Shown: piece by piece, positions 12,840 through 62,632 of the stretch | How the letters are laid out: each line of letters starts with the position of its first letter | Position numbering within the stretch: position 1 is the stretch's first letter | NCBI GenBank assembly: GCA_964016885.1 | Contig: OZ024745.1 | Location: forward strand, 75,144,001-75,208,000 | From: Eledone cirrhosa | Taxonomy: Eukaryota | Reading direction: 5' to 3' | Length of the DNA: 64,000 bases | Notes under the pieces: model-generated | What the model saw: only the letters and a program-made list of their open reading frames with translations | Databases searched by the model: none | What the model was told of the DNA's origin: nothing | Position numbers and translations under genes: made by a program

Positions 12840-12899
<60 letters not shown>

Positions 12900-12903
<4 letters not shown>

Positions 12904-15900
12904 TATAGACATAGAATATTCGAAAATATTCTGTATGTTTATAATAAACATTTTGAAGACCTAATCGCTATAGAATAGAATACGTCACGTATTACAATTA
13001 GATTCTCGATAAAAGCAAGGGAAGTAATCTACGCGTTTCATTCTTGTTAGAAATCATCAGGACCACATATCCAGTGCTTTTATCGAGAATGACACAGCTA
13101 GAGACTTATAGAATACTTAGCTGTGTACAGGAACTGGTTTGAAAGAGCGGTTGCCGGTCCGGCAGAAATTAGAAATTGGAATAAATGCTCTGAAATAGCG
13201 ATATATATGTGAATATAGACATAGAATATTCGAAAATATTCTGTATGTTTATAATAAACATTTTGAAGACCTAATCGCTATAGAATAGAATACGTCACGT
13301 ATTACAATTAGATTCTCGATAAAAGCAAGGGAAGTAATCTACGCGTTTCATTCTTGTTAGAAATCATCAGGACCACATATCCAGTGCTTTTATCGAGAAT
13401 GACACAGCTAGAGACTTATAGAATACTTAGCTGTGTACAGGAACTGGTTTGAAAGAGCGGTTGCCGGTCCGATTCCAATTTCTAATTTCTGCCGGACCGG
13501 CAACCGCTCTTTCAAACCAGTTCCTGTACACAGCTAAGTATTCTATAAGTCTCTAGCTGTGTCATTCTCGATAAAAGCACTGGATATGTGGTCCTGATGA
13601 TTTCTAACAAGAATGAAACGCGTAGATTACTTCCCTTGCTTTTATCGAGAATCTAATTGTAATACGTGACGTATTCTATTCTATAGCGATTAGGTCTTCA
13701 AAATGTTTATTATAAACATACAGAATATTTTCGAATATTCTATGTCTATATTCACATATATATCGCTATTTCAGAGCATTTATTCCAATTTCTAATTTCT
13801 GCCGGACCGGCAACCGCTCTTTCAAACCAGTTCCTGTACACAGCTAAGTATTCTATAAGTCTCTAGCTGTGTCATTCTCGATAAAAGCACTGGATATGTG
13901 GTCCTGATGATTTCTAACAAGAATGAAACGCGTAGATTACTTCCCTTGCTTTTATCGAGAATCTAATTGTAATACGTGACGTATTCTATTCTATAGCGAT
14001 TAGGTCTTCAAAATGTTTATTATAAACATACAGAATATTTTCGAATATTCTATGTCTATATTCACATATATATCGCTATTTCAGAGCATTTATTCCAATT
14101 TCTAATTTCTGCCGGACCGGCAACCGCTCTTTCAAACCAGTTCCTGTACACAGCTAAGTATTCTATAAGTCTCTAGCTGTGTCATTCTCGATAAAAGCAC
14201 TGGATATGTGGTCCTGATGATTTCTAACAAGAATGAAACGCGTAGATTACTTCCCTTGCTTTTATCGAGAATCTAATTGTAATACGTGACGTATTCTATT
14301 CTATAGCGATTAGGTCTTCAAAATGTTTATTATAAACATACAGAATATTTTCGAATATTCTATGTCTATATTCACATATATATCGCTATTTCAGAGCATT
14401 TATTCCAATTTCTAATTTCTGCCGGACCGGCAACCGCTCTTTCAAACCAGTTCCTGTACACAGCTAAGTATTCTATAAGTCTCTAGCTGTGTCATTCTCG
14501 ATAAAAGCACTGGATATGTGGTCCTGATGATTTCTAACAAGAATGAAACGCGTAGATTACTTCCCTTGCTTTTATCGAGAATCTAATTGTAATACGTGAC
14601 GTATTCTATTCTATAGCGATTAGGTCTTCAAAATGTTTATTATAAACATACAGAATATTTTCGAATATTCTATGTCTATATTCACATATATATCGCTATT
14701 TCAGAGCATTTATTCCAATTTCTAATTTCTGCCGGACCGGCAACCGCTCTTTCAAACCAGTTCCTGTACACAGCTAAGTATTCTATAAGTCTCTAGCTGT
14801 GTCATTCTCGATAAAAGCACTGGATATGTGGTCCTGATGATTTCTAACAAGAATGAAACGCGTAGATTACTTCCCTTGCTTTTATCGAGAATCTAATTGT
14901 AATACGTGACGTATTCTATTCTATAGCGATTAGGTCTTCAAAATGTTTATTATAAACATACAGAATATTTTCGAATATTCTATGTCTATATTCACATATA
15001 TATCGCTATTTCAGAGCATTTATTCCAATTTCTAATTTCTGCCGGACCGGCAACCGCTCTTTCAAACCAGTTCCTGTACACAGCTAAGTATTCTATAAGT
15101 CTCTAGCTGTGTCATTCTCGATAAAAGCACTGGATATGTGGTCCTGATGATTTCTAACAAGAATGAAACGCGTAGATTACTTCCCTTGCTTTTATCGAGA
15201 ATCTAATTGTAATACGTGACGTATTCTATTCTATAGCGATTAGGTCTTCAAAATGTTTATTATAAACATACAGAATATTTTCGAATATTCTATGTCTATA
15301 TTCACATATATATCGCTATTTCAGAGCATTTATTCCAATTTCTAATTTCTGCCGGACCGGCAACCGCTCTTTCAAACCAGTTCCTGTACACAGCTAAGTA
15401 TTCTATAAGTCTCTAGCTGTGTCATTCTCGATAAAAGCACTGGATATGTGGTCCTGATGATTTCTAACAAGAATGAAACGCGTAGATTACTTCCCTTGCT
15501 TTTATCGAGAATCTAATTGTAATACGTGACGTATTCTATTCTATAGCGATTAGGTCTTCAAAATGTTTATTATAAACATACAGAATATTTTCGAATATTC
15601 TATGTCTATATTCACATATATATCGCTATTTCAGAGCATTTATTCCAATTTCTAATTTCTGCCGGACCGGCAACCGCTCTTTCAAACCAGTTCCTGTACA
15701 CAGCTAAGTATTCTATAAGTCTCTAGCTGTGTCATTCTCGATAAAAGCACTGGATATGTGGTCCTGATGATTTCTAACAAGAATGAAACGCGTAGATTAC
15801 TTCCCTTGCTTTTATCGAGAATCTAATTGTAATACGTGACGTATTCTATTCTATAGCGATTAGGTCTTCAAAATGTTTATTATAAACATACAGAATATTT

Positions 15901-16577
15901 TCGAATATTCTATGTCTATATTCACATATATATCGCTATTTCAGAGCATTTATTCCAATTTCTAATTTCTGCCGGACCGGCAACCGCTCTTTCAAACCAG
16001 TTCCTGCACACAGCTAAGTATTCTATAAGTCTCTAGCTGTGTCATTCTCGATAAAAGCACTGGATATGTGGTCCTGATGATTTCTAACAAGAATGAAACG
16101 CGTAGATTACTTCCCTTGCTTTTATCGAGAATCTAATTGTAATACGTGACGTATTCTATTCTATAGCGATTAGGTCTTCAAAATGTTTATTATAAACATA
16201 CAGAATATTTTCGAATATTCTATGTCTATATTCACATATATATCGCTATTTCAGAGCATTTATTCCAATTTCTAATTTCTGCCGGACCGGCAACCGCTCT
16301 TTCAAACCAGTTCCTGTACACAGCTAAGTATTCTATAAGTCTCTAGCTGTGTCATTCTCGATAAAAGCACTGGATATGTGGTCCTGATGATTTCTAACAA
16401 GAATGAAACGCGTAGATTACTTCCCTTGCTTTTATCGAGAATCTAATTGTAATACGTGACGTATTCTATTCTATAGCGATTAGGTCTTCAAAATGTTTAT
16501 TATAAACATACAGAATATTTTCGAATATTCTATGTCTATATTCACATATATATCGCTTTTTCAGAGCATTTATTCCA

Positions 16578-16584
<7 letters not shown>
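12900..16584 (+). mobile_element. Retrozyme-like tandem array: 310-bp unit, 10 sense copies (13472-16584) + about 1.85 inverted copies (12900-13471)
   Basis: gccggaccgg recurs at 13491, 13801 ... 16281 (period 310); only two substitutions seen (16007, 16558); one HHR per unit; (TA)n on both sides. Confidence 0.85.
13588..13630 (+). ncRNA. Type-I hammerhead ribozyme (first sense copy; repeats every 310 bp)
   Basis: GTGGTC-CTGATGA-T-TTCT(aaca)AGAA-T-GAAA-CGCG-TA-GATTAC; stem I GUGGUC/GAUUAC, palindromic ACGCGT in stem III, predicted cleavage after GUA at 13624. Confidence 0.85.
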
Positions 16585-24182: not shown

Positions 24183-24229
24183 TATATATATATATATATA
24201 TATATATGTATTTATATTTGCAGGTCATT

Positions 24230-24300: not shown

Positions 24301-25857
24301 GTAAGTATAAAAAGGAGATAAATTTAGCATTTGGTTAATATTTTGAAAATATATATTGGGTATGATATTTAGATCCCTCACTCACCTTCCCTAGAGTATA
24401 CATTTAAGTGAGTTGTTTTTGGTACCCAAAAGACTAAATCCATGGCCTCATCATCATCATTTTACATCTCCATTCCATACCAGCATGGGTTGGGACATAG
24501 ATTAAACTGTCTTTAAAATTTCCAGCCTATTTCTGATTAATTTTTCACAAATGTTGATTCTGTGATCACCATGCATGGCTGACTTCTGTTTGTTATGCTG
24601 TGGATGCACTAGCTGGAACCAACCCAAACCACTCTGGTTGAATGTTGGCACAAGTACTTTGTAATTAAGTAAATTACCTGGTGGTGAATTGGCAGAGTCT
24701 TTAAGGTGTCGGATAGAATGCTTTATGGTATTCGTCCCACCTGATTGCATGCCCTGAGTTGAAATCCTGCTGTGGTCAACTTTGCCTTTCATCCTTTCGA
24801 CGTTGATAAAAAGAAAGTACCGGTCCAGTACTGGGGTCGATTCTTCCTCTATAGAAAAAATATCAGCTGTGTTCAGACCTGGTGAGGGTTGGACTCCACC
24901 AGTTTTAAAAGTACCCTAGACACACCGTATGATAGTGCCTCTATGACTCCACAAGGAGTTATGAGATCTTTATCCGAAATTACCTGGCTTACTGCAGTTG
25001 TTGTCAATTTACTTCAACCTCTCACTTGTTTGCATTATCTTGGCTATCTGGCTACGAATCATGGCAAATGGAAGTGATTGAATTTGGCCAACTGGAAGTA
25101 TTTGACTACTTTGGCCATTGTCTAATCCTCTGTTTTCACACACTTTGGATTTTATGTCAAGCTTCAAAGTATATTAATATTGCTTGATTGAATTCCTCCA
25201 ACTCTTGCTCAAAAGCTGCCTCCATCATCCAAAGGGCCAACATATCTGCAATCTAGTTGCACCAGGGCCTCTCTCAGGATGGTGTAAGTGGTGAGTTGGG
25301 CAGCTACATGCATTAATATGATCAAAGTGGATTTTGAATCTCTATATGATGTCAACTGTTGGATATCTGTGATCACCAAGTCTGGTTGTTTAGTGTTCAT
25401 GATGCTGTGGATTCATTGGCTTAATTTATTTCAGGTGGGTGATGACACAAGTAAGGTTACTGTTGTAGATATTTGACACCTGGCCAATTGGTTTGACTGC
25501 TATTAATTCACTTACATTTCTACAACTTGATGCTTTTCCTAATGCTAACCAATTTAGAGAGTGTACTGGGTGCAATTTATCATGGTGCCTACTTGGGAGG
25601 TTGTCATGTTCTTGATGTAACTGAAGTGTCCTCTCTACACTTGAGCCTGGTTTATTTGGCTGGATGCCCTTCCTAACACTATATTGTTACAATTCCAATG
25701 CCAATCACTTTACAGAGTGTACAGAGGTCATTTTGTAGTGGTACCAACGCTAGTGAGGTTGCCTTAGAAATTCAGATGATGTAATATTTGAAATATATGT
25801 CACCATTAAATTATTAATATATGTCATCATTAAATTATTAATATATGTCACCATTAA

Positions 25858-26088
<231 letters not shown>

Positions 26089-27019
26089 TAAGTGTTTAAC
26101 TCTTTAGCATTTACATTGCTCTATATTTACTATTATATTTTTACGGTAATATCGAATCTATGAGATATTGTAATATCGAATCTATGAGATATTGATATTA
26201 TTTATTTTGAGAACAATACCTTAACATCAGTATGAGTGGCCAGTTACAGCCAGTTGGAGAAGAAAGACGTGAGAGAATTCTGGCTGGATATGACTGGTTT
26301 AAATGCGAAAGGGTTAAATATTTTATTCTAACGTGCCATTGATACCCACAAACATTCAAGATTCCTTCCTACTCCAATCCATCCAATGTTCTTTATCTTC
26401 TCTTGTCTCTTCTTAATTAGAAATGATTATTGGTACTTGAGCAGAATTGTTAGAACATTGTGCAAAATATTTAGTGGTAATCGTATCAGCTTTTTACTGT
26501 CTGAGTTGAAATCTTGCCGTGGTTAACTTTGTTTTTCAAACTTCTGGAGTTGAGAAAATAATGTACCAGTCAAGTACTGGGGTTGATTTGACTTGACTTT
26601 TCCCATCTCCCAATATTCTGATTTTGTACCTACGTTAGAAACAATGTTCCACTTATTCCTGAGAGGGTCGTGGGGACAGAGTCCTCAAACACTCCTTCCA
26701 GCGGGTCCTGTCAGAAGTAACCGTCTCCAACTGATCCGGCTGGATCCCCAAGTGGGATCAGCCAAGTTCATGGATGTTATGCAGCCATCTTGTTTGACGT
26801 CTACTGCTGGTTGGTTTTGCCCATAAAATCTATCCAGCAATTTTTTCCTGAGACATTCTAAGCACATGTCAATAGTATCGGAGCTGTGATCTCTCAATTC
26901 AGAGAAGTAGCGACTCTACTTGGAGTGACTCTTTGCTCTCCGAGCTACACACTCTATCGAGTAACGTTACTCCAAAGAAACATTGTTAAATAAATAATTA
27001 TTATTATGTACTGGTAAAT

Positions 27020-27195
27020 AATTGTTTCTACTTTTGGCACAGTGTATTACTGGTACTTTATTTTATCGACCCCGTAAGGATGAAAGGCAAAGTTAACCTC
27101 GGCGGGATTTGAACTCAGAATGGCAAGGACCGTAAATCAATGCGTCAAAGCATGGCGTCCGACCCTCTACCGATACTGCCAATCCACTGCCTTCT
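27020..27195 (-). mobile_element. tRNA-derived SINE with Meta-like domain (other copies at about 24680-24840, 26440-26640, 42695-42905, 42930-43120, 55045-55230, 55700-55860)
   Basis: On the minus strand: ctgagttcaaatcccgccgaggttaactttgcctttcatccttacggggtcgataaaataaagtaccag. Confidence 0.75.
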
Positions 27196-27214
27196 GGTAA
27201 ATATGTACTGGTAA

Positions 27215-27355
<141 letters not shown>

Positions 27356-28123
27356 TAAAAACTTAATCTCTTTTAACTAAATATAATTGAAAGCAATCTT
27401 TGCTTTGAAGATAACATTTTTGGGGTTTTCTTGAAGATGGTTGGTGACAAAAAGAGAGAAAATATAATGAACAAAACAAAATTGTTTCATCCCATCATAT
27501 CAAACTGTGTTATAGTTGAACCAATTGAATGTCAGTGTAAATATTGATCTTCCTGAAGATAACCTCTCTATTGCACCCTATTAGCTACTCCCTCCACCCC
27601 TGTCCATGCACTTGATTGCCTCTCCTTGTACCCCTCTCTAAAGTCCTTAGATACCCTCTCTATCACACTCTAGTAGCTACTCTCTCCACCACTGTACATC
27701 CCACTCTGCCCATACCCCCTACAAAGTCCTTAGAAACCCTCTCTATTGCACCATAGTAGTTACTCCCTCCATCCCTGTGCACCCACTCCACCCATGATGC
27801 CTCCTCTAATGGCACCTTAGTTCTTCCTCCCTCTAACATCCTTAGATACCGTTTTTCCATGCTTGCATGGGTTGGACAGGTCCTTTCCAGCACATCTCTC
27901 CACTTGTTGCAGTATTTAGTTAACCCACCTGTGAGCTTCAGTGCTATAGACACCACATGTAACCTGGTTTTTAGAATAGATGCACATTGTAAGAGTCAGT
28001 TAAAAGGTTTGGCACCAGGAAGGACATTTTCTTGTTAAACATTATCTCAAAACATCCTATCCAGCATGGAAAAGTGTACATAAAAATGATGATGATGATG
28101 ATATATATTTTCTGTACCAACAG

Positions 28124-28249
28124 GGTTCTATGAAAAACAAAATAACAGCTGCAGAGTCCCGAGTCTTCTGGTTGTCTCTTGTATCCTGCCAAATAATATG
28201 GATTGTGCTATTTTTTGGAACTATGTTTACACTCAACTTTGAGTGGTTT
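28124..28249 (+). CDS. TVP23: TVP23 coding exon 4
   Basis: GSMKNKITAAESRVFWLSLVSCQIIWIVLFFGTMFTLNFEWF. Confidence 0.93.
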
Positions 28250-28998
28250 GTAAGTACTTGTTAATGTTAGTAGTGGAGTTAACCCTTTTGATATCAAACT
28301 GCCTGAAACTATTCCTAGTTCTGATACAAAACTATTTATTTTAAATTGTTTATATTTATCTGAAAACCTTTCATCATAATTTTAGATAAAAACCTTTGTA
28401 AAATTTTTCCAAACACAAACTTAATAATTGTTTCTACTTTAGGCACAAGGCCAGCAATTACCCAGTGCATTACTGGTACTTTATTTTATCGACCCCGTAA
28501 GGATGAAAGTCAAACACAAACTTAATAATGAGAAAATTAGTTATTTTACTAAATCCTTTTAAATTCCTGATCATTTTCAATATTACTTTCATTAGAAATA
28601 TGGTAACAAAAGGGTTAAAGTGTTTATCTAAAAACCTTCATTTGTAATTTTATGTTAGAACCTTTGTTATGTTCTAAACATTAGCTGAATAATGAAAAAA
28701 GTAGTTATTTTATTAAATCTCTTCAAATTCTTGCTTATTTTGAAAATAATGTGAAAATCATTGATACTGTCTTTCGTGAGGCTAGTCCTTACTTTAGCAG
28801 AGTAAATAGTCTTAAAACACTTGTACATTAATTTACATCTGTTTCCATGCTGGCAATGGTTGATGCTAGAAACAGCATCCAGCTGTAGAATACAGCCTCT
28901 AAAAGGTCTTGTTCAACCCATGCTAGCATAGAAAAACAGACATAAAAACAATGATGATGATAATACTTCTGTAAAAATTGAAATGTTTTGTCTTCCAG

Positions 28999-29127
28999 AT
29001 GGTTGTAATTGTTGGTATTGTAATGAATGGAGCTAATCTTTATGGGTATATACGGTGTAAAATTGGTGCCAAGAAGTCTTTGAGAAGTGTAGCTTCCAAT
29101 TTCCTAGGACAACATATTCTACAAACA
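28999..29127 (+). CDS. TVP23: TVP23 coding exon 5
   Basis: MVVIVGIVMNGANLYGYIRCKIG...NFLGQHILQT. Confidence 0.95.
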
Positions 29128-30419
29128 GTAAGTTGGATTTTTTTTCATTTTCATTCCTTCTTTTAAAATGGCTTTGAGGTTAATTTGTTGAGTCTGTGAA
29201 CTGTATGTTATTAACAGCAAGGTATGGAGTATATTTATGCAAGCTGGAACGTTTAGACCACTTTTTCCAACACTAAATACTCCATGTTTGAGCATTGGAT
29301 GTTGGGTCAAAATAAAATTCATTGTTGCTGTTGGATTGGTTCCCTCCGACAACTCCTACTCAAAAGACTCATTGGTTTGGTCATGCACTCTCCCACTCTC
29401 GAGGTGAACTCATCCGTTTTGTGTGATCAAAACATGGTCCTCTGACCTGGCTGTCTCACAACAGGACAACTCTAACCCATGCTAGCGTGGAAAATAGACA
29501 TTAAATAATAATGATGATGATGATGCAGTTGCACCTAGGCTCCTTCCAGGACAGTGTAAATGGTGAGGTGGACAGTCGAAAACATGAATTGGCATGATCA
29601 TGTTGCATCTTGAGCTAATGTCTGGCCCTCACATGTATGGTGTCTGCCATTGGAATAGTGACTGGTTGACAATATTAGCACCAGATGTCTGAGATGTTTG
29701 TACATAGGTGGTCTCTGGCTGAATGCCAATATGTATCTATAAATAGTAAGGCAAGGTACATAACTCATAACTGAGGGCCGTCAATCTGTATTCTAAATAT
29801 GGTAATGAAGATTAAGGATCACTTGTGATCCCTCTTGAAAATTTATGATCAAAGCATTCTATCCGTGATCACCTCATCTTGTTTTTAGGACTAACTTATC
29901 CACAGTGTCAATTCTTTTTTTAGACAGTAGGGTGTTATTAGAGGGAGACTTAGCTGTTATTTCTAGTAAGTTGTAAGACTACACCGTGGCCTTCTTCATT
30001 GACTCATGAAATTTACTGTTAAAATGTCACTTTTATACATCTTGTTCACCACTCAGTTAACATGTTCCCCATTTTACATTCTTTGTTCACAATTTACATG
30101 TCTATGTTCATCCTTTAACATTCCTTGGTCAGTATCTGCATTATTGTTAACATGTCCATCTTTTTTAGTTCCCTTGTTCACCATACAGTTAACATGTTCA
30201 CTTGTTAAGAACCCTGTTTTATCATCTGCAGTCATTTAACATTATTTACTATTTTACTCCCCTTGTTCATCATTAACACTGCTGTTAACATGTTTACTTT
30301 TTTACATTCCTTGTTCATTATTCACGTTAAAATTCTCACCTTTTGTTCACTATTCACTGTTATTAATATCTTCACTCTTTCACTATTAACATATATATAC
30401 ACATGCTTCAAATCACACA

Positions 30420-30776
30420 AACCATTCTGGGAATTAATGAAGACCCTTTGATCTGAAGGAAGAGTGGCAAAGATCATGGAATGAATCCAAATTTGCCAAC
30501 CAAGACCTCATCCAGCGCTCCACATCTAAACCAGCCAGCATTGACCTTCCTAGAAAGCAATGAGTGTCCCTTAATTGGCTTCGCACAGCCATCATCTCCA
30601 TGGATGTAAGACAGCCCAGCATGTGACTGTGGGAACCTGACCAGAGATTGCTGCATGTTGTTTGGGATTGCCCCCTCAGATGTTTTCCCAGCGGCCTGGA
30701 GGCAATCCATAATACTACAAATGACACTTTAGTCTGTCTCTCTAACTATTGTGCATATGTCATACAAGAAGAAGAC
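30420..30776 (+). mobile_element. Degenerate LINE 3' end with CCHC knuckle (Ingi/Vingi-like)
   Basis: Translates, with disruptions, DLPRKQ*VSLNWLRTA...CDCG...HVVWDCP, followed by an aagaagaaga tail. Confidence 0.6.
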
Positions 30777-31188
30777 TATTAACATGTTCACCTTTTTACA
30801 TCTCTTGTTAATGTTCACTTGTACATCTACACCACTGTTAACATTAACTTTTTTACTTCATCTATCTCCAATACCACTGTTAATATGTTCACTAGCTACA
30901 CATTTTAATCCTTTTACAACCTTTGTCTTCCTTCACTGTTAGCATTCACTTTTTCCTTGAAGTTGAAAGTGCATGGCCAGAGTGTTGGATTCATGACCAT
31001 AAGGTTGTGGGTTCACTTCCTAGACCAGATGGTGCATTGAGTTCTTGAACAAGGCACTTCATTTCATGTTAGCATTAGGGCCTGTATCATTACCCCCCCC
31101 CCCCCCCCCCCACCCCCCGACTTCTATGAGATACAACCTCATAGTAGGCCAACTGAGCTGTAATTTTCATTTTTTTTTTATTCTGCAG

Positions 31189-31272
31189 TTTAGAGGCTCA
31201 GTAGCAAACCCAACAGAAAGCACATCAGAAAATTTGAATGAGAAGTCATCTGCACCAAAATTCTCCATCTGA
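31189..31272 (+). CDS. TVP23: TVP23 probable last coding exon
   Basis: Strong polypyrimidine acceptor, FRGSVANPTESTSENLNEKSSAPKFSI*; total CDS 645 nt. Confidence 0.7.
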   Translation, partial: FRGSVANPTESTSENLNEKSSAPKFSI

Positions 31273-43270: not shown

Positions 43271-43411
43271 TTTATTAAACAAACTGAAAGATTTCTTGGT
43301 GTACCCAGCTTTTCCAAGAATACTAAAAAGTTGGTCAAAAACATAAGGTGTTGGCATGACACGGTCCCTTTTTAGCATCAATTCTTCCAGTGTATCAATA
43401 GCTTCCAAAAT
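43271..43411 (-). CDS. PTCD1: PTCD1 coding exon 3
   Basis: ILEAIDTLEELMLKRDRVMP...GKAGYTKKSFSLFNK. Confidence 0.93.
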
Positions 43412-43968
43412 CTTCGAAATAAAAAACACACACACACAAAATTGAGAATGGTGAAAAAGAATCCCTTCCTCACCCCACCCCACCAAAAAGCTGCAATACA
43501 AGAAATTGATTACTGAGAAATAATCTTAGAAGTAAAATTGGTATTTTTTCATTATAAAGTGGTTGTTGTTAGGAAGGGCATCTAATAGTAGAAACCATGT
43601 AACGACCCGTCCAGCCCATTCCAGCATTGAAAGTGGATGAAATAATGATGAGACCCTCACCACATCATCCTAGGTCTTCCCCTTCCATATATATATATAT
43701 AAAACCTTTTGTATATATCGTTATTTTGTTGTGTGTATAGTTTGTGCCTTCGGTTGGTCCTCTTGGTGTTACATTTTTTAACTATGGTGTTTAACTCTGG
43801 ACTTAATGTTTGTTTTTAACTTTCGATCCATTGAGTGCTCTGTGATTGCCTCAAAACAAATTGAATAGTACTTGTTGAACTGCAGTTAAAGTTCGATTTA
43901 CAAATATATATATATATATATATTATAAAATAACAGGAGGCTGGACTGGTGTAATTCCTTAAAGAAAA

Positions 43969-44004
<36 letters not shown>

Positions 44005-44011
<7 letters not shown>

Positions 44012-45101
44012 CAAATAACGAAACGAAATTAAATTTTGTTTCGTTTGTAACTCACTTTTGTATGACTGACGCTTAAACAATTAAGTTAAAAATGTACATC
44101 TACATATGCATACTGAAATACTAGTGTGTATATGAATACACACACGTATACATATGTATATGTAACAAGTCTTTCACTGGTTGCTTTACTGTGAGCAACC
44201 CAGCTATTCTGTATGTAAACACACAGACAAACCGGTTTTTAGAGTCATACTGGTTTTCGGGGGAACACCTTCCCTCTATTCTCCAGAAAGCCAGACAAGG
44301 AATATTGAACTAGTTTCGTTGTTGTTACAACTCATCAGCAATATTTACCTATCTACCGGCCCTTCTGGAGAATTGTAAAAGCACATATCGTTATATGCTT
44401 TTTCTATGAAAATTAGTAGTGGGCAGACTAATTTGCATAGAGTGTGAGTACGCACCGGTTCAGCAGAGACGATAAAAACAAATAACGAAACGAAATTAAA
44501 TTTCGTTTCGTTTGTAACTCACTTTTGTATGACTGACGCTTAAACAATTAAGTTAAAAATGTACATCTACATATGCATACTGAAATACTAGTGTGTATAT
44601 GAATACACACACGTATACATATGTATATGTAACAAGTCTTTCACTGGTTGCTTTACTGTGAGCAACCCAGCTATTCTGTATGTAAACACACAGACAAACC
44701 GGTTTTTAGAGTCATACTGGTTTTCGGGGGAACACCTTCCCTCTATTCTCCAGAAAGCCAGACAAGGAATATTGAACTAGTTTCGTTGTTGTTACAACTC
44801 ATCAGCAATATTTACCTATCTACCGGCCCTTCTGGAGAATTGTAAAAGCACATATCGTTATATGCTTTTTCTATGAAAATTAGTAGTGGGCAGACTAATT
44901 TGCATAGAGTGTGAGTACGCACCGGTTCAGCGGAGACGATAAAAACAAATAACGAAACAAAATTAAATTTCGTTTCGTTTGTAACTCACTTTTGTAAGCA
45001 ACCAGTGAAAGACTTGTTACATATACATATGTATACGTGTGTGTATTCATATACACACTAGTATTTCAGTATGCATATGTAGATGTACATTTTTAACTTA
45101 A

Positions 45102-45103
<2 letters not shown>
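44005..45103 (-). mobile_element. Retrozyme-like tandem repeat: 467-bp unit x about 2.1 (44005-44996) + inverted partial copy (44996-45103)
   Basis: Unit starts at 44005, 44472, 44939; HHR per unit on the minus strand; (TA)n on both sides. Confidence 0.85.
44301..44345 (-). ncRNA. Type-I hammerhead ribozyme (second copy 44768-44812)
   Basis: Minus strand AATATTG-CTGATGA-GTTG(taacaa)CAAC-GAAA-CTAG-TT-CAATATT; perfect 7-bp stem I, palindromic ACTAGT in stem III. Confidence 0.9.
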
Positions 45104-45186
<83 letters not shown>

Positions 45187-45189
<3 letters not shown>

Positions 45190-45528
45190 GCACATGGCTT
45201 AGCTTAGTGGTTAGAGCATTGGCCTTGCAATCGAAAGGTTGTGAGTTCAGTTCTCAGACCGGGTGATATGTTGTTTCCTTGAGCAAGACACTTTATTTCA
45301 CACTGCTCCAGTTTACTCAGCTGTAGAAATGAGATGATAGGGACTGGGGTCCATATCGTTCCACTGCAAAGTGGTCGTGGAGGTGCCACCGCAAAAAAGC
45401 ACCCAGCACTCACTGTAAATGAGGTTGGTGTTAGGAAGGGCATCCAGCTGTAGAAATCAAGCCAGAATCAGTTCCCGTCCCACCCTTGCAAGCAGGGAAA
45501 AGCGGACGTAAAATGATGATGATGATGA
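45187..45528 (+). mobile_element. tRNA/CORE-like SINE with RTE tail
   Basis: Same family as 6898-7193. Confidence 0.9.
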
Positions 45529-46345
45529 TACAGATACAAGCATGGTTATGTGGTAACTTGGTCAAGAGACATGTACTATAGCCTCAGGTTGACTAATGCT
45601 TGGTGAGTGAATTTGGTAAACCGAAAAAGAAAAAAAAGCTTGATGTGTGTGTGTGTATATCTCTCTCTATATAGTGCTGGTACCACAATAAAATACATCC
45701 AGTACATAAGATGGTTGGTTATAAGAAGGGCATCCTGCTGTAGAAAACCTACCGACATGGAAAAAAGGAGGTATAATATATATATATATGGTTGAACACA
45801 TGTCAGTATGGAAAGCAGACATAAAATGAAGATAATTGTGTGTGTCTGTGTGATTTCTGCGTCCATGGTTATATTGACACCGTTTAAAGCAAGAGGTGAC
45901 GTTCGTTTATGATCAGCATAAACAATATCTCCTACAGCATATGATTGAGCAGTATATATCATAGGTAAAAAAAAAAAATGCCTAAAAAAGTCCTGTTCAA
46001 GCCATAAGAAAGCAGATGTAAAAACACCATCACTTATTATAATGTTGATATATCAGTGGAGGCTATATTCTAACAGAAATAACAGCTATATTCTAACAGA
46101 AATATTCGGTAGTCAATATCCAACTGAATTACCTCCCCTTTCATCTGCGTCTCATTTGCAGTTGGTATTGTTCAAGAATGATGAAATAAGTACAACATAC
46201 GTACTGGGGTCGATATAATCAATTAAAAGCATAAGGTGGTGCCATATTACAGCGACTTAAACTAGTGAAAAAGGAATTTAAATAAAAAAAGAGAAATAAA
46301 AAAACAGCAAAGAAGATGAGTTGAAAGTCAGGAAAGAAAACTTAC

Positions 46346-46469
46346 CTTTCCTTCTTTTCCCAGTTGTTTGATCCTGCCACCGTACCAATACGGCTCATGT
46401 AACCTTCCCGTAGGAGAAAGTCGGATGTGAGTCCGACCTTCCTTTTCATCTCGCTTGTCATGGATGAAA
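46346..46469 (-). CDS. PTCD1: PTCD1 coding exon 2
   Basis: FIHDKRDEKEG...HEPYWYGGRIKQLGKEGK, matching the PYWY...KEGK motif of PTCD1; phases fit. Confidence 0.9.
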
Positions 46470-46861
46470 CTGCAATGAGAAATGCAACAATCATTTTAAC
46501 CATTTCGATACTAGTCAGGCCAAAACTGACACTGGTTCAATGAAATGACACCACTTACTTCAAAGGATTCATATTTAAATTAAAATCGTCTAATATAACT
46601 TTATATAAGAACTATATGTTAAGTTACTATCTTAGAAATACAGTCATGAAAGGGCTAAGGTCATTTTCCTTGCTAAAGCAGTAGTTAGCATTGTGGACCC
46701 TATATATATATACACACACACACTCACATACATATGTATACACACACACACACACACACATATGTATCTATATATACACATATACATAGACACATGCGTA
46801 TATACATAAATATACACATATATATATACATAAACATACATATATATATAGACACATACAT

Positions 46862-46998
46862 ATCATCATCATCATCATTTTATGTCCGCTCTTCCCTGCT
46901 TGCAAGGGTGGGATGGGTCTTACTCAGCACAGCATCTCTCCACTTGTCACGGTCCTTCGTCATCTCCACCGTGAGCTTCAGCAATCCGAGGTCTGTCC
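46862..46998 (-). mobile_element. Short RTE 3' tail
   Basis: Reverse-complement homolog of 6275-6405. Confidence 0.8.
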
Positions 46999-48041
46999 AC
47001 AATGCTAAGCACTGCTTTAGCAAGGAAAATGACCTTAGCCCTTTCATGACTGTATTTCTAAGATAGTAACATATATACATATATATATATATATCAGAAT
47101 AGAAGCAGTAAAAACCAGTTAGACCATTACTCACCAGAGTACTTGATACTTGGAGTATTTCTATGTCCCCGCACATATATACACACATGTACATACATAT
47201 ATACATATAAACACACATGTATATATATGTATATACATATTCACACATTTTTGGATGGCCGTTGACTCTTATGAGTTCTTCTGCCTTTTGTCAGGTTTTG
47301 TTTTTTTTCCTGCAGGGTGTCCAAAATCACCCTCCTCACTAAGTAAACTTAGTGGGGTTGCCGGTTTAGTCGCCGACGACCCGACCATAAGACAGGATGT
47401 ACTGGGTTACATGTTACCAGTAACACTCGAGAGCGACCTGACATACATACATATATATATGTAAAAGGTAAACGGTACATACATATATATATACATGTAT
47501 GGGCGATAGAATATGCATGTGTATTTTTTTCTCATTTTACCCCGTTCCTTCCTCTTATCACTCTTAACTTCTTTTTCTACTCTATCTTCTGATAAAGGAC
47601 TAGTGCCCGAAATGTTAAGACTCTCTTCTTTCTATTTTAAGTGGTAAACTAATATATTTCTTTGATGTACTCTGCTATTTGTTTTGTTATTTCTGTTTAC
47701 CTTTTACATATACATATATATATATACATACGTATATATTATATATACGTACATATATGTGTGTGTATGTATATATATGTGTGTGTATATATACGTACAT
47801 ATATATGTGTGTATGTAGGGTTGGCATACTCAAGTGGAGCTACATCTCGTTCACTCACATTCCCATACTGGTATTTACTCTTTTGGGGGAAATAACTACA
47901 CGAAGGGAAGTAACTCAATAGATGATCTCAACCATTCAGTAAAGAAATACAAATCGATAAAATGACTATGTACTGGAGAGAAGATCGATATTATTGACAA
48001 AGCACCTTGAAATCATTAAAAGAATAAAATAAGAAACTAAC

Positions 48042-48601: not shown

Positions 48602-50269
48602 TGTGTTATAGTAAATCTGCAAAAACAAGATAAATTCTTAAAATAATGATGATATACACACATTTATGGTTAGTGATTGAACTGTAAAAATGAAGGGTAG
48701 AGAGGACTCTTTATTCATGTCAAAGACATGACAACCTATCTATTGCTTTGATAAAATGCACCCAGTATACTCTGTAAGCTAGTTGGTATAAGGACATTTC
48801 ACTATTGAATATTGAGATATCTGTGCTGTCTCTGTACACTCTGAGTTCAAATCTCACCTCCCATCACCAGAAAAGTGGTAACATTTCTGCCAGGAGTTAC
48901 AACCATCAGATAGTATCTGCAACAGAAGCAGTTTCCTTTGTCTGATCTAAGTGATTTGCCCTTTTCCTTTCCTTATCTATTAACATATGATTTTCTGTGA
49001 TTGGGTAATGAATGGATGGGTTTCTAGTACAACATTTAGAAATGGGTGTCAGGCCATGTGGAACCTTATGTTTCAGAGGAGGATTAAGTTTTAAATAACA
49101 CCAGGGTTTGTTTTTAAAATGGAAAGCCAGAGTATTAGGCATCAGCATCTCCTTCTTGGGTATTTTTAGCAGAATTCACTTCATTGCAAGCATATTAACC
49201 AGGCAACTTGGCCCCACCCTATTCATGCTTTTTTTCGCAGATTTTTCTTTATTCATGCTGAACATCAGTCACATCAACCTCACCAAAAGGGAAAGAAAAG
49301 TGGAGAAACTAAGTGGTATTTCAATTGTAAAGTGTAGTTCTACTAGATTTTAGATGGAGACACTAATATGATTCAGGGATCCTCACTTGATATGTTAGAT
49401 CTGGAAGCAAAATCTCCATCAGATCAGACATGTATTTAAAAAGAAACATAAATCCTGCTTGGAAAAAAAAAAAAGGCAGATGGTTAAGGTTTGTACACCT
49501 TCGATCATAGGTTTACTTGATCAGGATTGACCCGGGCAACAATTAGTATTCTGGTTTCACAGACATGAAATTGAACTCAGTACAAATTAATTAACCACTA
49601 ATTAACCAATCTGATAGTAGTGCTGCTGTTCTTACACTGTGGTACCTATTTACAGCTAGTTAGACTGAGGTCTTGGAGAGTTAAATATTTTTGACATGTT
49701 CAGTTGATGATAAATATACAGAATTACAACAGAAGTAGAATGGCTAAGTAATTCAGGATTACACTATCTGCTCAGAGGTCATTGGTTCACGTTATTATTT
49801 CCAACCTTTTATTCTTTCACTAATTTCATTCTTTGGCCTGTAGTCAGACTGGGTCTTCATATGTTTTAGTCGAATATATTACATTTTTATCTATTGAATG
49901 GTTAAGCCCATCACTAGCTTAAAGGGAAGTAACTTAAGAAGATTCTTTTTGCTCGACGTATCAATACAACCCCACCCATTATCATCTACCAACCTAGATA
50001 TCTATCTATCCCTTTTATTGGTACCAGTTATTAGGCTACAGATATGCAAGGCATTGATTTAGTCACTCATATCGACCCCAGTGCTTATCATAGTGATCCC
50101 CTTTTTTGTCGAATTGCTAAGTTACGGGATATAAACACACACACACACATATATGTATGTATATACAACAGGCGTCTGTAGTTTCTGCCTACCAAATTCC
50201 ACTGACAAAGCATTGGTCAACTCAAGGCCATAATAGACGACATTTGCCCATCATGTTTTAGTCTGGCGT

Positions 50270-50644
50270 GTTCATTTAGTGCTGAATTGTCTTTTTAGTT
50301 CATTCTAGTGTTCATCTCTCCTCTCTCCTATGCTGCAGGCTGTCTCTCTTATGTACTTCGCTGTCATGTTTTTGCAGACACCTTCTGTACATCTTATACT
50401 ATAGACTACATTTGTAGTTTTACAATTTATTAGTGGACTCTACATATTACACATTTCTTATTTGTACAGTGGGTTTACTTAAAGGGGTAAGTTTTATTGA
50501 TCAGGGATTTTATGGTAGTTCCTGAATTTTCTACCACTTCAATATTTAAATAGGTTTTTCTTAGGGCCTTTCTAAATCAACAAGCTAGTTCACCTCCAGG
50601 GGTTGCATTCATGAACATGACACTCTGGTATCTCTGGTTGTCGT
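50270..50644 (-). mobile_element. Degenerate Penelope fragment related to the 59.7-62.5 kb element
   Basis: Aligns by eye with about 60585-60903 (e.g. catgacactctggtatctctggttgtcgta). Confidence 0.8.
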
Positions 50645-50651
50645 ATATATA

Positions 50652-53620: not shown

Positions 53621-53943
53621 GTGGCGAAGGATAACCTGGAAAGCAGAGCATGCAGTCCAATCGCCATGGCGGAGAGTGGGGCTGTGCAGCCTTACCCCCT
53701 CCCCTCAATTCACTCTAAATGACCCTCCCAGTCAAAGCCGCATGTAGTGTTATCTAGTGTGTGTGTGTTATCTTTCTTTTTATGTGTCTACGATTTAGTA
53801 AGCAGCCAAAATTCTGCTTGCTTTAACCGACGCAATTGATCAACTGAAGATTCTATAACGCATGCACTGCATGCGTTGCATGCACGCACCCTTCGCCCCT
53901 GGTATACATATATATGTATGTATATCTATATATCTATATATGT

Positions 53944-54142
53944 ATAAATATTTTGTATCTCCAAAGAAATACAGTTTTAGGAAGCCGTAGCTATGCAAAC
54001 ACAGGGGGGTGGGAGTGGGTGTGGGAGGGACCGCCCTGACGAAGGCCAGTTAAGCCTGAAATGCATAGACGGTTGTTCCCCCGGTGTTTGCATAGCTACG
54101 GCTTCCTAAAACTGTATTTCTTTGGAGATGCGAAATATTTAT
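53944..54142 (+). mobile_element. PLE-end-like hairpin (about 64-bp inverted arms) enclosing an HHR (54030-54073)
   Basis: ACCGCC-CTGACGA-AGGC(cagttaa)GCCT-GAAA-TGCA-TA-GACGGT; arms 53944-54007 / 54079-54142. Confidence 0.75.
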
Positions 54143-56104
54143 ATATATATTGTATAAAGCTATGCTTGAAGCGAAATCCTATTTCTTTTTTATATATATA
54201 TATGTATATATATATGTATACATATATATATATGTATATACAGCTATTATCTGCGACCTGATTTTGCATGTGTGTCATTTTAACGGCCTGACCGCATGCG
54301 TTGGGCAGGAAGCGAAATATTTACTTACTATAGGGCTGGCAACCTTATAGTGTGGAAATAAGCTGTCTGAAGATTCATTTCTTTCCATTGGAAATTCTCT
54401 GGATTTCCAATCTTTTGGAATGATGAAACCGTCGGTAACAGCAATAGAACAGGTGATTATTTAAATCGTTTTTTAATTTATTTAGAGAATTGTTTGATAA
54501 CCGCTTGCTCAGCTATTTTTATATTGTTCTGGTATCTCGAATTAGTACCATTGAACCACAAATATTATAAACACCTTGCATATTTCTACAAGTACATAGT
54601 GCCTGTTGAAGTATTCATCCACTTTTATAATATGTATATATACATGTATATATACATATATATATATATGCATACACACACGCACACACACACACATACA
54701 TATATATATATATGTGCAAGGGGACAGTGCTCATATTGTTCAAGCCCAAGTCAACACTGATCGAACAGACATATGATCAGAGACATTCGATCTATGATCA
54801 TCTCCGAACACAATAGATACTCCACCAGTTTCAATGACGAGCTTTCAGTTCTTTGATCAACTAAACGCCCGACTCATTAAATTAAGGTGGAAGTGGCTGA
54901 GCATTCCACCGATACGTATACCTTCAACGTAATACCCAAGAGTTGTAAGAAACACTCAGGAGTACTGGACAGCAGAATGACGTAAGTGAGGAAACCGTAC
55001 TCAAGCGTTTCAGTCCTTAACCATATATATATATATATATATAACTGTTTCTACTTTAGGAACAAGGCCAGCAATTACCCAGTGCATTACTGGTACTTTA
55101 TTTTATCGACCCCGTAAGGATGAAAGGCAAAGTCAACCTCGGCGGGATTTGAACTCAGATCGTAAAGGGACGTAACTATGATGGAAAGCATGGCGTCCGA
55201 CCCTCTACCGATACTGCCAATCCACCGCCATATCCACTACCATCGTTATATATATATATATATATATAAAAACGATGGTAGGACGTAATTGGAAGGATTT
55301 GAGTTGCGTAATATATCATTTTTCGGGAGGAATCAGGATTTTCTTTTTGTCCAATATGGTAATGTATGCTGTTCCATTGTTATCTTGTTGTAATTTGAAG
55401 ATTTTGCTCAACAATTACATTTATGTATTGTTATCACGTATTCCTAACTGAATGTTTTAGCACAGACTTCAGTTTAATAAATAGAAACACAAAACCTGAG
55501 TACTTTAGCATCTCATTGTTGAAGTTATCAGCTTTAAAATGTTTAGGGCTTGGATTAGGAAAGAAAGGAAAAAAACCTTTAACCCTTGGTGGAGTTGTAG
55601 GGGCGCTATCTGGTCACACGACGTGTCTTGAACAACTTGGTGGAGCTCATTTCTCCTTCTTCAGTTCTGAACACAACTGATTTCTTTCAAAGGAAAGAGA
55701 GAGAACCAAACCCAGTACTGTTCTGGCACTTTATTAATTGACTTCGAAATGACGAACAGCAAAATCGACTGTGGTGAGATTGGAACTCAGAGCGCAGTCA
55801 GCTAGAATAAATACCGAGGCATTTTATCCGATACCCTAACAATTCTGCCAAATCACCGCTTTTATTTAGATTAGAGTTAGGGTCAAGACTTAAGTTTGGA
55901 GTTTAAGGTTAAGATAGGGAAATATTAAAAAAAAATGATTTGTGGGTCACGAAATGATATGTGAGTTGGCGCAACTTATTCAATCACTGGACGTCATAAT
56001 CTCGATTGCGACTTAATAAAGTATATTTTCAGAACCATGTATTTGTACACAATGGCGTCGAGTAAATGTTATTTCTGTAAATAAAATTTATCTTCCTGTG
56101 GTGT

Positions 56105-59748: not shown

Positions 59749-62550
59749 AACGGCGATGAATTAGTTTTGCGAGGTTTTTTATATGAAATCGTGTGTCGAA
59801 ACAAATATTGTTATACTTGGGGAGGGTCATATTTGTGTAATATTGCGAGATTAATAACAGAACACACTCACTGTTTGGTTGGTTTTCGCTTTTCACTTCT
59901 GTGTCTTTTATATCGGTAATCTAATTTACTCGGTCCTCAATGTTGCCATTGACTGATCAACGGTCAAAAATAATACAGATACAATATAGACGCAAACACA
60001 TATATATAGTTTATCATAAATCTTTCGTTGCACATCTGCACTATCGTCAGTGGTGCTATTGTTTCCTCCTGTTGAATTGTATGGCTACACCATTTTTATT
60101 CAGTCTGTCTATATATTTATTTATTTATTTGCTTGTTTGTTTATTTTATTTTGTCTTCTTTGCGCATGCGTTTGCGTGTGTGTATAGTGTTTTGTTTGAT
60201 GTGTGATGTGTGTTCGTGATTGGGTGACTAATGTGTGTTTATGTGTTTGTTGTTATTGTGCTTGTGTATGTATTTATTTATTTATTTTATTTATTTATTT
60301 AATTTAATTTAATTTATTTATTTATACTTCTCTTAGGTCAGTGTTGTTTGTTTGGGTGTTGTTGTTATTCCATTCATTCTTTCTGTTTAGTCTTGGTCTT
60401 CTAAGTTCTATTTCACTGGCCTCTCTGATTTGCCTATCTGCTGGGTCATTTCTATGTTTAGATATTATTCTAATTTCTATGTTGTCTATGTTACCGTCAT
60501 GTTGTTGTCTGGCATGTTCGTATAGTACTGATCCGTCTTTTCGTCCTTTTAGTTCCCCCCAGTGTTGGTCTATCCTTTCACCTATGCTACGAGCTGTCTC
60601 ACCTATGTATGTTGTTGTCATGTTTCTGCAGGTACCCTCTGTACATCTTATGCTATAGACTACGTTTCTAGTTTTACAGTTTATCCGGGGGTTTACCTTA
60701 CATATGATACATTTCCTATTGGTACAGTGGGTTTTCTTAAAAGGGTAGGTTTTGCTGATCAGGGATTTTATGGTGGTTCCTGGCTTTTCTACCACCTTAA
60801 TTTTTAAGTGGGTCTTTCTCAGGGCCTTTCTACACTGGTTAGCTAATTTCCCTCCAGGGGTAGCGTCCACAAACATGACACTCTGGTATCTCTGGTTGTC
60901 GTACCATGAGGTGGCTTTCCCTGTCTTATGTTTAGCCCTATCTAAGCTATTCCATGATTTGCTCCTGTATAATGGGCAAATTCCTTTCATGTCCAGTTCT
61001 ATGAGGGTCTTATACTTCTCCATGGCTCCTTCGTATACTCTGACTCTGTCTCTTTGGTTGTAGCCAGAGAACTGCATGCGGTTGATGAAGTGTTGGATGT
61101 GTCTTTCCATTTCTGTTGGGTCGCACATGCGGGACATATTCTTCATCACTCGTACCAAATCTGCGATCAGAATATTAAACTTAGCACTACTGGACATTGC
61201 TGAGTTTTTGAGTATCAGGTATTTGGAGGCCATAGGTTTAGCATAGTGTGAGTGGAGAATTTGGGCTCTCTCGTCTATAGTGTTAATCCAGAGTTCTGTG
61301 TCTAATACAGGTAGTCTATTGTTAGGGTGTTTGGAAAGGTAGTCGATAGTTACAGTTATACTATGGTGTATGGAATTAGCTATCTGCTGGATGCTTTCCA
61401 TTGTGCTACGTTCTAAATCAAACTTGTTAGTGCTCTCTAGTGGGAATGTTCTTATAACTATATTGATATCGTCTACATCACGAGAGTACATGATGAGGTC
61501 TATGGAGCACTCATTAAGGGGATCTTTAAGTCGCCTTTCCCACCATACCATGAAAAGGTTGGCAACATCACCAGCTAGGCTGACGCCAATGGCTGCTCCT
61601 TCATTTTGGGTGTAGATCTTCTCGTTGAACTTAAATATGTGGCCCTTGAGGGTAGTTTTGATACTAGCCCCTATTGCATGTGCGACCATTTTTCTTACCT
61701 GATCATTGTTTTGGGGGGTCCGTATAGCTTTGGTCCACCCAATCCACCTTCCCATGGGAGTCTTTTTCGCCATTGGGGTTATGGTGGGGGGTCTACCTCT
61801 TATGGGTCTACTAGGGCAGAAACGTCTAAGGTCATGGCTGTCTAGGTAGTCAGTGTCGTAGGTAAGTCTAAGTAGGAGGCCCAGTTCGTCTGTGTCGACG
61901 TCGCAGAACTCCACCTCACTCTCAATGATCATCTCCACACATTTTTCCACAGCAAAATCAATGTTAATGGATGGGTACAGTGACACCACATCCATGCTGC
62001 CTATTATGCAGTTGGATAGGTTCCTGTTTTTGTTGCACTCACTGATTCTGCTGAGGAGGTCCTCTGTACTGTCACATACATCCGGGGACATCTTGATTAT
62101 GGGGCGTATAACCATTGAGAGGAAGTAGGAGATCCTGTAGTTGCTAGCTATATTAGCTCCGCATACGGGTCTTGTTGGTGGTCCTGTTGTCGAGTCGTCG
62201 ACTGTCTTGTGGTTTTGCGGAGCCCATACAAGGGTGGTATGCCATTGTTAGACGCCTGGAAGTTGTTGGCAGTGCGTCTGCTTGGCTTTAGGATGTCAGT
62301 CCACATCATCATGTGAGCGTTGAGGATTTTCTCTCTCCCATCGTGTGTTTGTTGTGCAATTTCGCTCGTGTTGGTGATGTGGGGTTGCATAGCCTTGATG
62401 TAGTTCTGTATGCTATCTATTGACATCCTACCAGACTTATCCGTGGGTAGACACAGAAGCGAAAAGCGAAAACCAACCAAACAGTGAGTGTGTTCTGTTA
62501 TTAATTCTGGCAATATTACACAAATATGACCCTCCCCAAGTATAACAATA
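59748..62550 (-). mobile_element. Penelope-like retroelement, 5'-truncated, with inverted pseudo-LTR (62449-62550) and RT + GIY-YIG ORF (60322-62115; upstream frameshifted part to about 62445)
   Basis: RPII, SMDVVSLYPSI, GAAIG, RDVDD (YVDD variant), LPVLD; CxxC..C..RNVVYSIRC...TYIGET.RSIGERIDQH...EASEI...LN; 62449-62550 is the reverse complement of 59805-59906; (TA)n on both sides. Confidence 0.95.
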
Positions 62551-62632
62551 TATATATATATATGTATATGTATATGTATATATGTATATATGTATATGTA
62601 TATGTATATATGTATATATATATGTATATGTA

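What the first reader, a model, noticed from the sequence alone, without database searches (positions are those of the whole stretch)
43412..46345. Two sense-oriented ribozymes inside a PTCD1 intron
Seen: PTCD1 is on the minus strand, and the HHRs at 44301-44345 and 44768-44812 are also on the minus strand, in the intron between coding exons 2 and 3. Inference: host pre-mRNA contains the two-HHR dimer needed to excise a unit-length 467-nt RNA, so a housekeeping gene could act as promoter for the retrozyme. Co-transcriptional cleavage might also affect PTCD1 splicing.
Basis: inference. Interest (0 to 1): 0.7.

Follow-up and report, generated by a model that had tools for sequence, protein, structure and literature searches.

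The report
Young retrozyme inside octopod PTCD1 intron
An apparently recent 1.1-kb mobile element with two hammerhead ribozyme motifs lies in an intron of an octopus-like animal's PTCD1 gene, facing the same way, so the gene's transcript likely supplies the element's RNA, but cutting is predicted to be slow and both the element type and this route of expression are already described.

Summary
Observation confirmed. PTCD1 is an intact nine-coding-exon minus-strand gene. Intron 43412-46345 holds two identical minus-strand type I hammerhead motifs 467 nt apart, with predicted cuts after 44775 and 44308.

They belong to a young non-autonomous non-LTR retrozyme: 2.12 units (3 differences in 525 nt, all CpG transitions) plus a 108-nt inverted arm, set in a (TA)n tract. 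This matches the Penelope-like element (PLE) insertion footprint. A second retrozyme family and a broken PLE in the window share that footprint.

Helix III is one pair plus a palindromic tetraloop, the dimer-dependent newt/axolotl type, and the triplet is GUU. Folding favours local hairpins over the active dimer, and exon 3 is only 0.9 kb downstream, so I predict slow, partial cleavage and little effect on PTCD1.

Read-through expression of retrozymes is already proposed in print, and about 43% of Xenopus copies are intronic. Sense orientation is a coin toss. No RNA data were available.

The bolder reading: paired flanks and ligase repair let the unit leave as a circle while the intron is resealed. 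Verdict: new member of a known kind, modest interest.

The parts
46346..46469 (-). PTCD1 coding exon 2
   Evidence: tblastn 77-84% identity to cephalopod PTCD1; AG/GT boundaries
43412..46345 (-). PTCD1 intron between coding exons 2 and 3, 2934 nt, phase 0, AAG acceptor
43271..43411 (-). PTCD1 coding exon 3
   Evidence: tblastn 75.5% identity
45107..45186 (.). (TA)40 microsatellite, upstream flank of the insertion
   Evidence: TRF
44996..45103 (+). Inverted 108-nt arm, 100% identical to unit positions 44546-44653 and to their equivalent 44079-44186; predicted to form perfect dsRNA in the pre-mRNA
   Evidence: blastn; duplex -178 kcal/mol, pairing 0.96 with the far copy at equilibrium
44005..44996 (-). 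Tandem retrozyme array, 2 x 467 + 58 nt
   Evidence: TRF period 467, 2.1 copies; 3 differences in 525 positions, all CpG transitions
44768..44812 (-). Type I hammerhead, copy 1; predicted cut 3' of 44775 (GUU); helix III is one pair plus a CUAG tetraloop
44301..44345 (-). Type I hammerhead, copy 2; predicted cut 3' of 44308; identical to copy 1
44308..44774 (-). Predicted 467-nt monomer or circle, strongly self-paired
   Evidence: MFE -157.6 kcal/mol, z -9.63, 0 of 100 shuffles as stable; circular fold -153.3
44005..44078 (-). 74-nt 'tail' between the 3' end and the start point of the inverted arm; contains a 13-bp hairpin at 44017-44045
43977..44007 (.). (AT)15 microsatellite, downstream flank; 2-nt overlap with the element's 3' end
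12891..16584 (+). Context: second retrozyme family, 10 x 310 + 13 nt plus about 1.85 inverted units, in (TA)n
59750..62575 (-). Context: 5'-truncated, frameshifted PLE (RT plus GIY-YIG-like end, Cys-rich linker) with degenerate pLTR hammerhead, inverted pLTR arm and 55-nt tail, in (TA)n

Best explanation
This is a young, non-coding tandem retrozyme with two sense hammerhead motifs in a PTCD1 intron, likely pasted into a (TA)n tract by a Penelope-like element's enzymes, likely transcribed passively with PTCD1, and predicted to cut slowly and only as a pair, so PTCD1 splicing would be little affected. Shown: gene model, motifs, 2.12 units, inverted arm, (TA)n flanks, near-identity. Inferred step 1: a PLE RT/GIY-YIG protein nicked the (TA)n tract and primed reverse transcription internally, 303 nt downstream of the ribozyme cut, on a circular or uncleaved multimeric RNA, copying through two intact ribozyme sites. 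A second priming event 74 nt from the 3' end made the inverted arm. Inferred step 2: Pol II reading PTCD1 makes the dimer. Each copy first folds into its own long helix I hairpin with an unstable helix III. Cleavage needs the strand-swapped double hammerhead, in which the two ACUAGU palindromes pair. Inferred step 3: a minority of transcripts or excised introns cut twice and release a 467-nt linear RNA that an RtcB-type ligase would circularise. Most transcripts reach exon 3 uncut. The locus is a passenger and at most a minor source of the family's RNA, not a regulatory device.
For: Gene and motif. Helix III matches the axolotl Amex1 description (one pair plus palindromic tetraloop), for which the monomer cleaved 6% in 1 h and dimers much more (PMC7229834). 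Inverted 5' copy, tail and (TA)n target are PLE hallmarks (PMC8557442; PMC3846280). Internal RT start at two adjacent sites bounding the tail is shown for an anole PLE (PMC11167929). The same geometry recurs in the 310-nt array and the PLE copy. Youth: 3 of 525 positions differ, all at CpG (p about 3e-4 if random), and CpG observed/expected is about 1.0 in the element. No exact Pol III boxes; read-through model in PMC7761336. Slow-cut arguments: local helix I probability about 0.95, dimer-active fold +6.6 to +9.9 kcal/mol. At 0.1/min only 2-9% would cut at the second site before exon 3 is made (assumed 1-3.8 kb/min). Slow intronic ribozymes did not affect splicing (Fong 2009 as cited in PMC10919898).
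Against: No RNA data. The folding model ignores tertiary contacts, Mg2+ and proteins, and it does not clearly favour the dimer for a first cut: one monomer-active site costs 8.5 kcal/mol against 9.9 for the dimer in the whole insertion. The motif keeps a loop II and a helix I bulge like fast natural hammerheads (HH9 alignment). At 0.8/min, 17-51% would cut before exon 3, and splicing finishes later than that. GUU is a cleavable triplet, and two PLE hammerheads with U at H17 appear in the supplement rows seen. No sequence homology links the 467-nt unit to the neighbouring PLE's pLTR, so the mobilising partner is unidentified.
Confidence: 0.6

Rival explanations
1. Dead-on-arrival or silent passenger: the dimer is transcribed within PTCD1 but essentially never cleaves in vivo, and no monomer comes from this locus.
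For: 8 of 9 Xenopus dimers gave no cleavage in vitro. The anole PLE hammerhead needed protein, and no reads ended at its site. Inter-copy helix III probability is 0.0 in the predicted ensemble. The insertion itself was copied through two uncut sites. GUU is not among the best triplets (GUC and AUC).
Against: Core is intact in both copies. Axolotl dimers of the same helix III type cleave efficiently. The monomer fold is highly non-random.
Confidence: 0.22
2. One reading: efficient co-transcriptional double cleavage makes PTCD1 a productive promoter for the retrozyme and measurably lowers PTCD1 splicing or expression.
For: Sense dimer in an intact gene. A fast engineered hammerhead in an intron cut expression up to 20-fold in zebrafish (PMC11856399). 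The Cpeb3 intronic ribozyme modulates its mRNA. The acceptor is a non-consensus AAG. Xenopus retrozymes are depleted from introns after normalisation.
Against: Only 0.9 kb to exon 3 (0.24-0.9 min at the assumed speeds), against 9.9 kb in Cpeb3. Local hairpins dominate. The cut flanks are predicted to stay paired. The coding sequence is intact, with no sign of decay.
Confidence: 0.12
3. A monomer or orphan pLTR inserted once and was duplicated locally at the DNA level (unequal crossing-over or slippage), or the repeat is an assembly artefact.
For: Local amplification of a PLE terminus is proposed in the 2026 preprint. Only two full units are present.
Against: The inverted arm lies at the boundary with the flank. 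In the 310-nt array the arm itself holds about 1.85 units with 1 difference in 581 nt, which fits a multimeric or circular RT template. The three differences are CpG transitions, not homopolymer errors.
Confidence: 0.06

Closest known systems
Metazoan non-LTR retrozymes (coral, mussel, axolotl Amex1; PMC7229834)
   Same: Short non-coding tandem repeat with one type I hammerhead per unit, GC 36%, strongly self-paired monomer, no ORF seen; helix III of the Amex1/newt dimer type.
   Different: Unit of 467 nt is slightly above the 150-450 range given there, though within 51-972 in the 2026 preprint. The dimer-type helix III is unusual for invertebrate retrozymes, most of which are described as monomer-competent. 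Inverted arm and microsatellite target are not mentioned in that paper's main text. Expression untested here.
Penelope-like elements, pLTR hammerheads and insertion structure (PMC4209133, PMC8557442, PMC3846280, PMC11167929)
   Same: Partial tandem, adjacent inverted 5'-truncated copy, tail, (TA)n target, internal 3' end, palindromic helix III.
   Different: No RT or endonuclease ORF. Tail is 74 nt rather than 30-40. Helix I is long (29 bp) and canonical-like rather than minimal. No homology to the one pLTR in the window.
Amniote intronic hammerheads HH9/HH10 (Rfam RF02275; conservation recalled, and stated in a paper title seen in reference lists)
   Same: Type I hammerhead in a host intron; best Rfam match.
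   Different: Those are solitary and conserved with a stable helix III. This one scores 38.6 against a 52-bit cut-off, is tandem, young and mobile-element-borne.
Cpeb3 intronic HDV-like ribozyme (PMC10919898)
   Same: Sense self-cleaving motif in an intron that could race with splicing.
   Different: Different ribozyme class, conserved over 100 Myr, 9.9 kb from the next exon with a measured 2-3 min half-life. Here the distance is 0.9 kb, with no measured rate and no evidence of conservation.

Membership tests
Type I hammerhead ribozyme | CUGANGA / GAAA / NUH core with helices I and II | tested here: met
   Both copies; helix I and II pair probabilities 0.66-0.99
Type I hammerhead ribozyme | Self-cleavage at H17 | not testable with these tools
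   No assay or RNA-seq available
Rfam HH9 (RF02275) | Score at or above gathering threshold (52 bits) | tested here: not met
   38.6 bits
Non-LTR retrozyme | Tandem repeat with at least two consecutive units each holding a complete type I hammerhead | tested here: met
   2.12 units, two motifs; criterion from the 2026 preprint
Non-LTR retrozyme | Unit of a few hundred nt, GC below 50%, highly self-paired | tested here: met
   467 nt, GC 0.36, z -9.63
Non-LTR retrozyme | Non-coding, no LTR structure | tested here: met
   No stop-free frame of 70 aa or more in the element in the part of the output shown (its middle was cut); repeat map shows tandem units, not LTRs. PBS and PPT were not searched for separately.
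Non-LTR retrozyme | Many dispersed genomic copies | not testable with these tools
   No eukaryotic DNA collection available; no other copy of the unit in the 64-kb window
Non-LTR retrozyme | Expressed as linear and circular monomer RNA | not testable with these tools
   No RNA data
Penelope-like element (autonomous) | RT plus GIY-YIG ORF | tested here: not met
   The 1099-nt insert is wholly tandem unit plus inverted arm
Penelope-like element (insertion footprint) | Partial tandem with adjacent inverted 5'-truncated copy, tail, and (TA)n target | tested here: met
   Arm 44996-45103, tail 74 nt, (TA)n on both sides; features
Penelope-like element (non-autonomous derivative) | Sequence homology to the pLTR of an autonomous PLE | tested here: inconclusive
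   No blastn match to the single pLTR in the window; other PLE families of the genome could not be searched

The most novel reading that the evidence does not exclude
The sense dimer is a self-healing intron cassette. In the strand-swapped double hammerhead the outer 29-bp helix I, plus the inverted arm and (UA)n flanks, keeps the upstream and downstream intron pieces paired after both cuts. An RtcB-type ligase closes the 467-nt circle and reseals the intron one unit shorter. Housekeeping-gene introns would then be cost-free factories for retrozyme circles, which PLE enzymes copy by rolling-circle reverse transcription into new (TA)n tracts, leaving whole-unit arrays with an inverted arm and tail.
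Probability: 0.12. Interest if true: 0.72.

Novelty: new member of a known kind. Interest (0 to 1): 0.35.

Why it matters
The promoter of animal retrozymes is unsettled: read-through has been proposed, and I found no locus-level test in the papers read. This locus is a tidy test case, with a minimal dimer in sense in a single-copy-looking gene, predicted cut sites and probably an empty allele or orthologue. The insertion structure, shared by two unrelated retrozyme families and a PLE within 64 kb, is physical support for PLE-driven mobilisation from multimeric or circular templates, complementing the phylogenetic argument in bioRxiv 2026.07.22.740005. I found no paper describing cephalopod hammerhead retrozymes. 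By itself, one sense intronic insertion is ordinary.

Tried and rejected
Rfam at gathering thresholds found nothing; the microRNA-family hits at E-value thresholds are below cut-off and fall on TA-rich or palindromic DNA, so they were rejected. An alternative UUC cleavage register was rejected by inspection because it breaks the 15.2-16.2 pair and helix I. Pol III boxes: no exact match, only one-mismatch B-box-like hits. The sigma-70 scan is irrelevant to this host and was used only to locate hairpins. The neighbouring PLE as direct parent: no blastn homology. Pfam and PDB gave no significant hit for the PLE ORF, so its identity rests on motifs read by eye (names recalled or from PMC8557442), a named Octopus RT-domain homolog at 68-71% identity, two hits carrying PF01541, and its terminal structure. 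Using the 310-nt array as an orientation control in a host gene failed: TVP23's first short exon could not be placed. No new poly(A) signal or strong acceptor in the insert; one GT(A/G)AG donor-like motif per unit, not pursued. No quantitative GUU rate was found. Lunse 2017 is not held. The supplement of PMC7229834 was unreadable, and bioRxiv supplements are closed; both could bear on orientation, inverted arms or cephalopod copies. No eukaryotic DNA or RNA collection was available, so copy number, orientation bias, the empty site and expression stayed unchecked. The bacterial genome scan, structure prediction and complex prediction were not used because they do not bear on the question.

Full report
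1. Observation. The largest exon's translation hits PTCD1 of Octopus bimaculoides (84%), O. vulgaris (83%) and Argonauta (78%), so the host is inferred to be an octopod other than these. tblastn with those proteins maps nine coding exons on the minus strand from 48601 to about 33130. Two of the tested boundary combinations give an open frame with 8 of 8 GT-AG introns (719 or 725 aa, differing only at the exon 5 donor). Rfam HH9 matches twice on the minus strand at 38.6 bits, under its 52-bit cut-off. My descriptor finds both motifs among 15 hits in the window and 0 in 100 shuffled windows (written after seeing the motif). H17 lies at 44775 and 44308, 467 nt apart.

2. The element. The motifs sit in a tandem array 44005-44996 of 2 x 467 + 58 nt. 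A 108-nt inverted copy of part of the unit (44996-45103, 100% identity) adjoins its 5' end, and (TA)40 and (AT)15 tracts flank the 1099-nt insert. Three of 525 compared positions differ, all CpG transitions (p about 3e-4), and CpG is undepleted in the element. I infer a recent insertion now being methylated. The predicted monomer folds at -157.6 kcal/mol, z -9.63. The 3' end is 303 nt downstream of the cut site, so the template was not a cleaved linear monomer: cDNA ran through two intact sites, which fits a circle or an uncleaved multimer (inference).

3. Context. A second family, 310 nt x 10 plus about 1.85 inverted units at 12891-16584, has the same layout in (TA)n, a related loop II and a CGCG palindromic tetraloop. 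A truncated, frameshifted PLE at 59750-62575 has an inverted pLTR arm, a 55-nt tail and (TA)n flanks. Partial tandems, an adjacent inverted copy, a 30-40 nt tail and (TA)n bias are PLE hallmarks (PMC8557442, passages; PMC3846280, passages). An anole PLE starts RT at two internal sites bounding the tail (PMC11167929, parts 1-2 of 4). In both arrays the 3' end, the array's 5' end and the arm's start cluster within 75 nt modulo the unit (467 family: 0, 57, 74; 310 family: 0, 12, 31-40). This fits second-strand priming near the RT start site on a periodic template. With n = 2, fold-back priming remains possible, especially for the 310 junction. The 467 unit shows no homology to the neighbouring pLTR.

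4. Would it cut? Helix III is one pair capped by the palindrome CUAG, the axolotl Amex1/newt type, whose monomer cleaved 6% in an hour while dimers were much more efficient (PMC7229834, parts 2-4 of 6). The active dimer needs helix I strands swapped between copies. ViennaRNA puts each copy in its own hairpin (P about 0.95). The dimer-active fold costs 6.6 kcal/mol for the two motifs alone, 8.6 without the arm and 9.9 for the whole insert, against 17.0 for two monomer-active folds and 8.5 for one (37 C). These numbers omit tertiary contacts, Mg2+ and proteins, and they do not clearly favour the dimer for a first cut. The triplet is GUU, cleavable but not among the best; I found no rate for it. 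In Xenopus 1 of 9 dimers cleaved in vitro (bioRxiv 2026.07.22.740005, parts 1-3 of 5), and no RNA-seq ends were seen at the anole PLE's site.

5. Effect on PTCD1. Exon 3 starts 897 nt after the second site. At assumed speeds of 1-3.8 kb/min, 2-9% would cut before exon 3 at 0.1/min (the mussel rate) and 17-51% at 0.8/min (the coral rate). Fast intronic ribozymes reduce expression (PMC11856399, passages). Slow ones do not (Fong 2009, seen only as cited in PMC10919898, passages). After double cleavage the upstream and downstream pieces are predicted to stay paired (binding -129 kcal/mol; -32 without the arm and TA tracts; outer helix I -31). The upstream piece can also hold the monomer through the arm (-110), which would hinder its release. 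Ribozyme-cut ends are rejoined by RtcB in mammalian cells (PMC13685140, passages), which is the basis of the novel case; nothing here tests it.

6. Host as promoter. The unit has no exact Pol III boxes and four T4+ runs. PMC7761336 already states that retrozymes seem to lack promoters and may undergo read-through transcription depending on location (passages). In Xenopus 42-44% of copies overlap introns, though depleted after normalisation. Sense orientation has a prior of one half, and the 310 array carries two-motif pairs on both strands. One sense insertion is thus no evidence of selection or function.

7. What is in print. Search listings showed no paper holding retrozyme, intron and 'sense orientation' together, and none evidently on cephalopod hammerhead retrozymes. 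The main texts of PMC7229834 and the 2026 preprint do not describe inverted arms for retrozymes. Their supplements could not be read (bioRxiv closed), Lunse 2017 is not held, and subscription journals and Repbase were not searchable. Other papers seen: PMC4209133 (passages and supplement passages), PMC3088659, PMC3138052, PMC11875169 and PMC9217987 (passages), and supplement rows of PMC8557442.

8. Verdict. Real, correctly located and well explained as a young non-LTR retrozyme with a PLE insertion footprint. The host-promoter idea is plausible and already proposed; a splicing effect is possible but probably small. The more useful by-product is the shared insertion geometry across two retrozyme families and a PLE. 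New member of a known kind; interest 0.35.

Noticed in passing
window 12891-16584: Second retrozyme family: ten 310-nt units on the plus strand (2 substitutions among the ten) plus about 1.85 inverted units with two motifs on the minus strand, in (TA)n; GUA triplet, CGCG tetraloop, U-U at the base of helix II; monomer z -4.39.
   Followed up: partly
window 53922-54163 (+): Solitary third-family hammerhead (C3 at 54036, UGCA tetraloop, AUA triplet) at the tip of a long hairpin; no other copy in the window.
   Followed up: partly
window 59750-62575 (-); fragment 50248-50645 (-): Broken PLE with a Neptune/Nematis-like Cys linker (clade not tested), inverted pLTR arm, 55-nt tail and degenerate minimal hammerhead at 60050; an older 79%-identical fragment lies upstream of PTCD1, and short pLTR matches lie at 830-887 and 1358-1434.
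   Followed up: partly
window 24224-31269 (+): TVP23 gene convergent with PTCD1; its first short exon was not located.
   Followed up: partly
window 43412-43440 (-): The PTCD1 acceptor is AAG preceded by TTTCG, one base short of a canonical TTTCAG; a weak site or a base-call issue. The frame is intact with the AAG.
   Followed up: no
window 44996-45103 with 44079-44186 or 44546-44653: The inverted arm gives a perfect 108-bp duplex in the pre-mRNA, a likely ADAR or Dicer substrate in a lineage known (recalled) for heavy RNA editing.
   Followed up: partly
window 46620-46698 and 46995-47073: 79-nt inverted repeat (96%) in the intron between coding exons 1 and 2, possibly MITE-like.
   Followed up: no
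window 1053-1193, 2457-2538, 13182-13471, 17361-17501: Several large palindromic inversions centred in repeats; long inverted duplications appear common in this window.
   Followed up: no
window 45190-45330: tRNA-like head of a SINE-like repeat directly beside the (TA)40 flank (Rfam tRNA 25.8 bits, below cut-off); its Pol III promoter would face away from the element.
   Followed up: no
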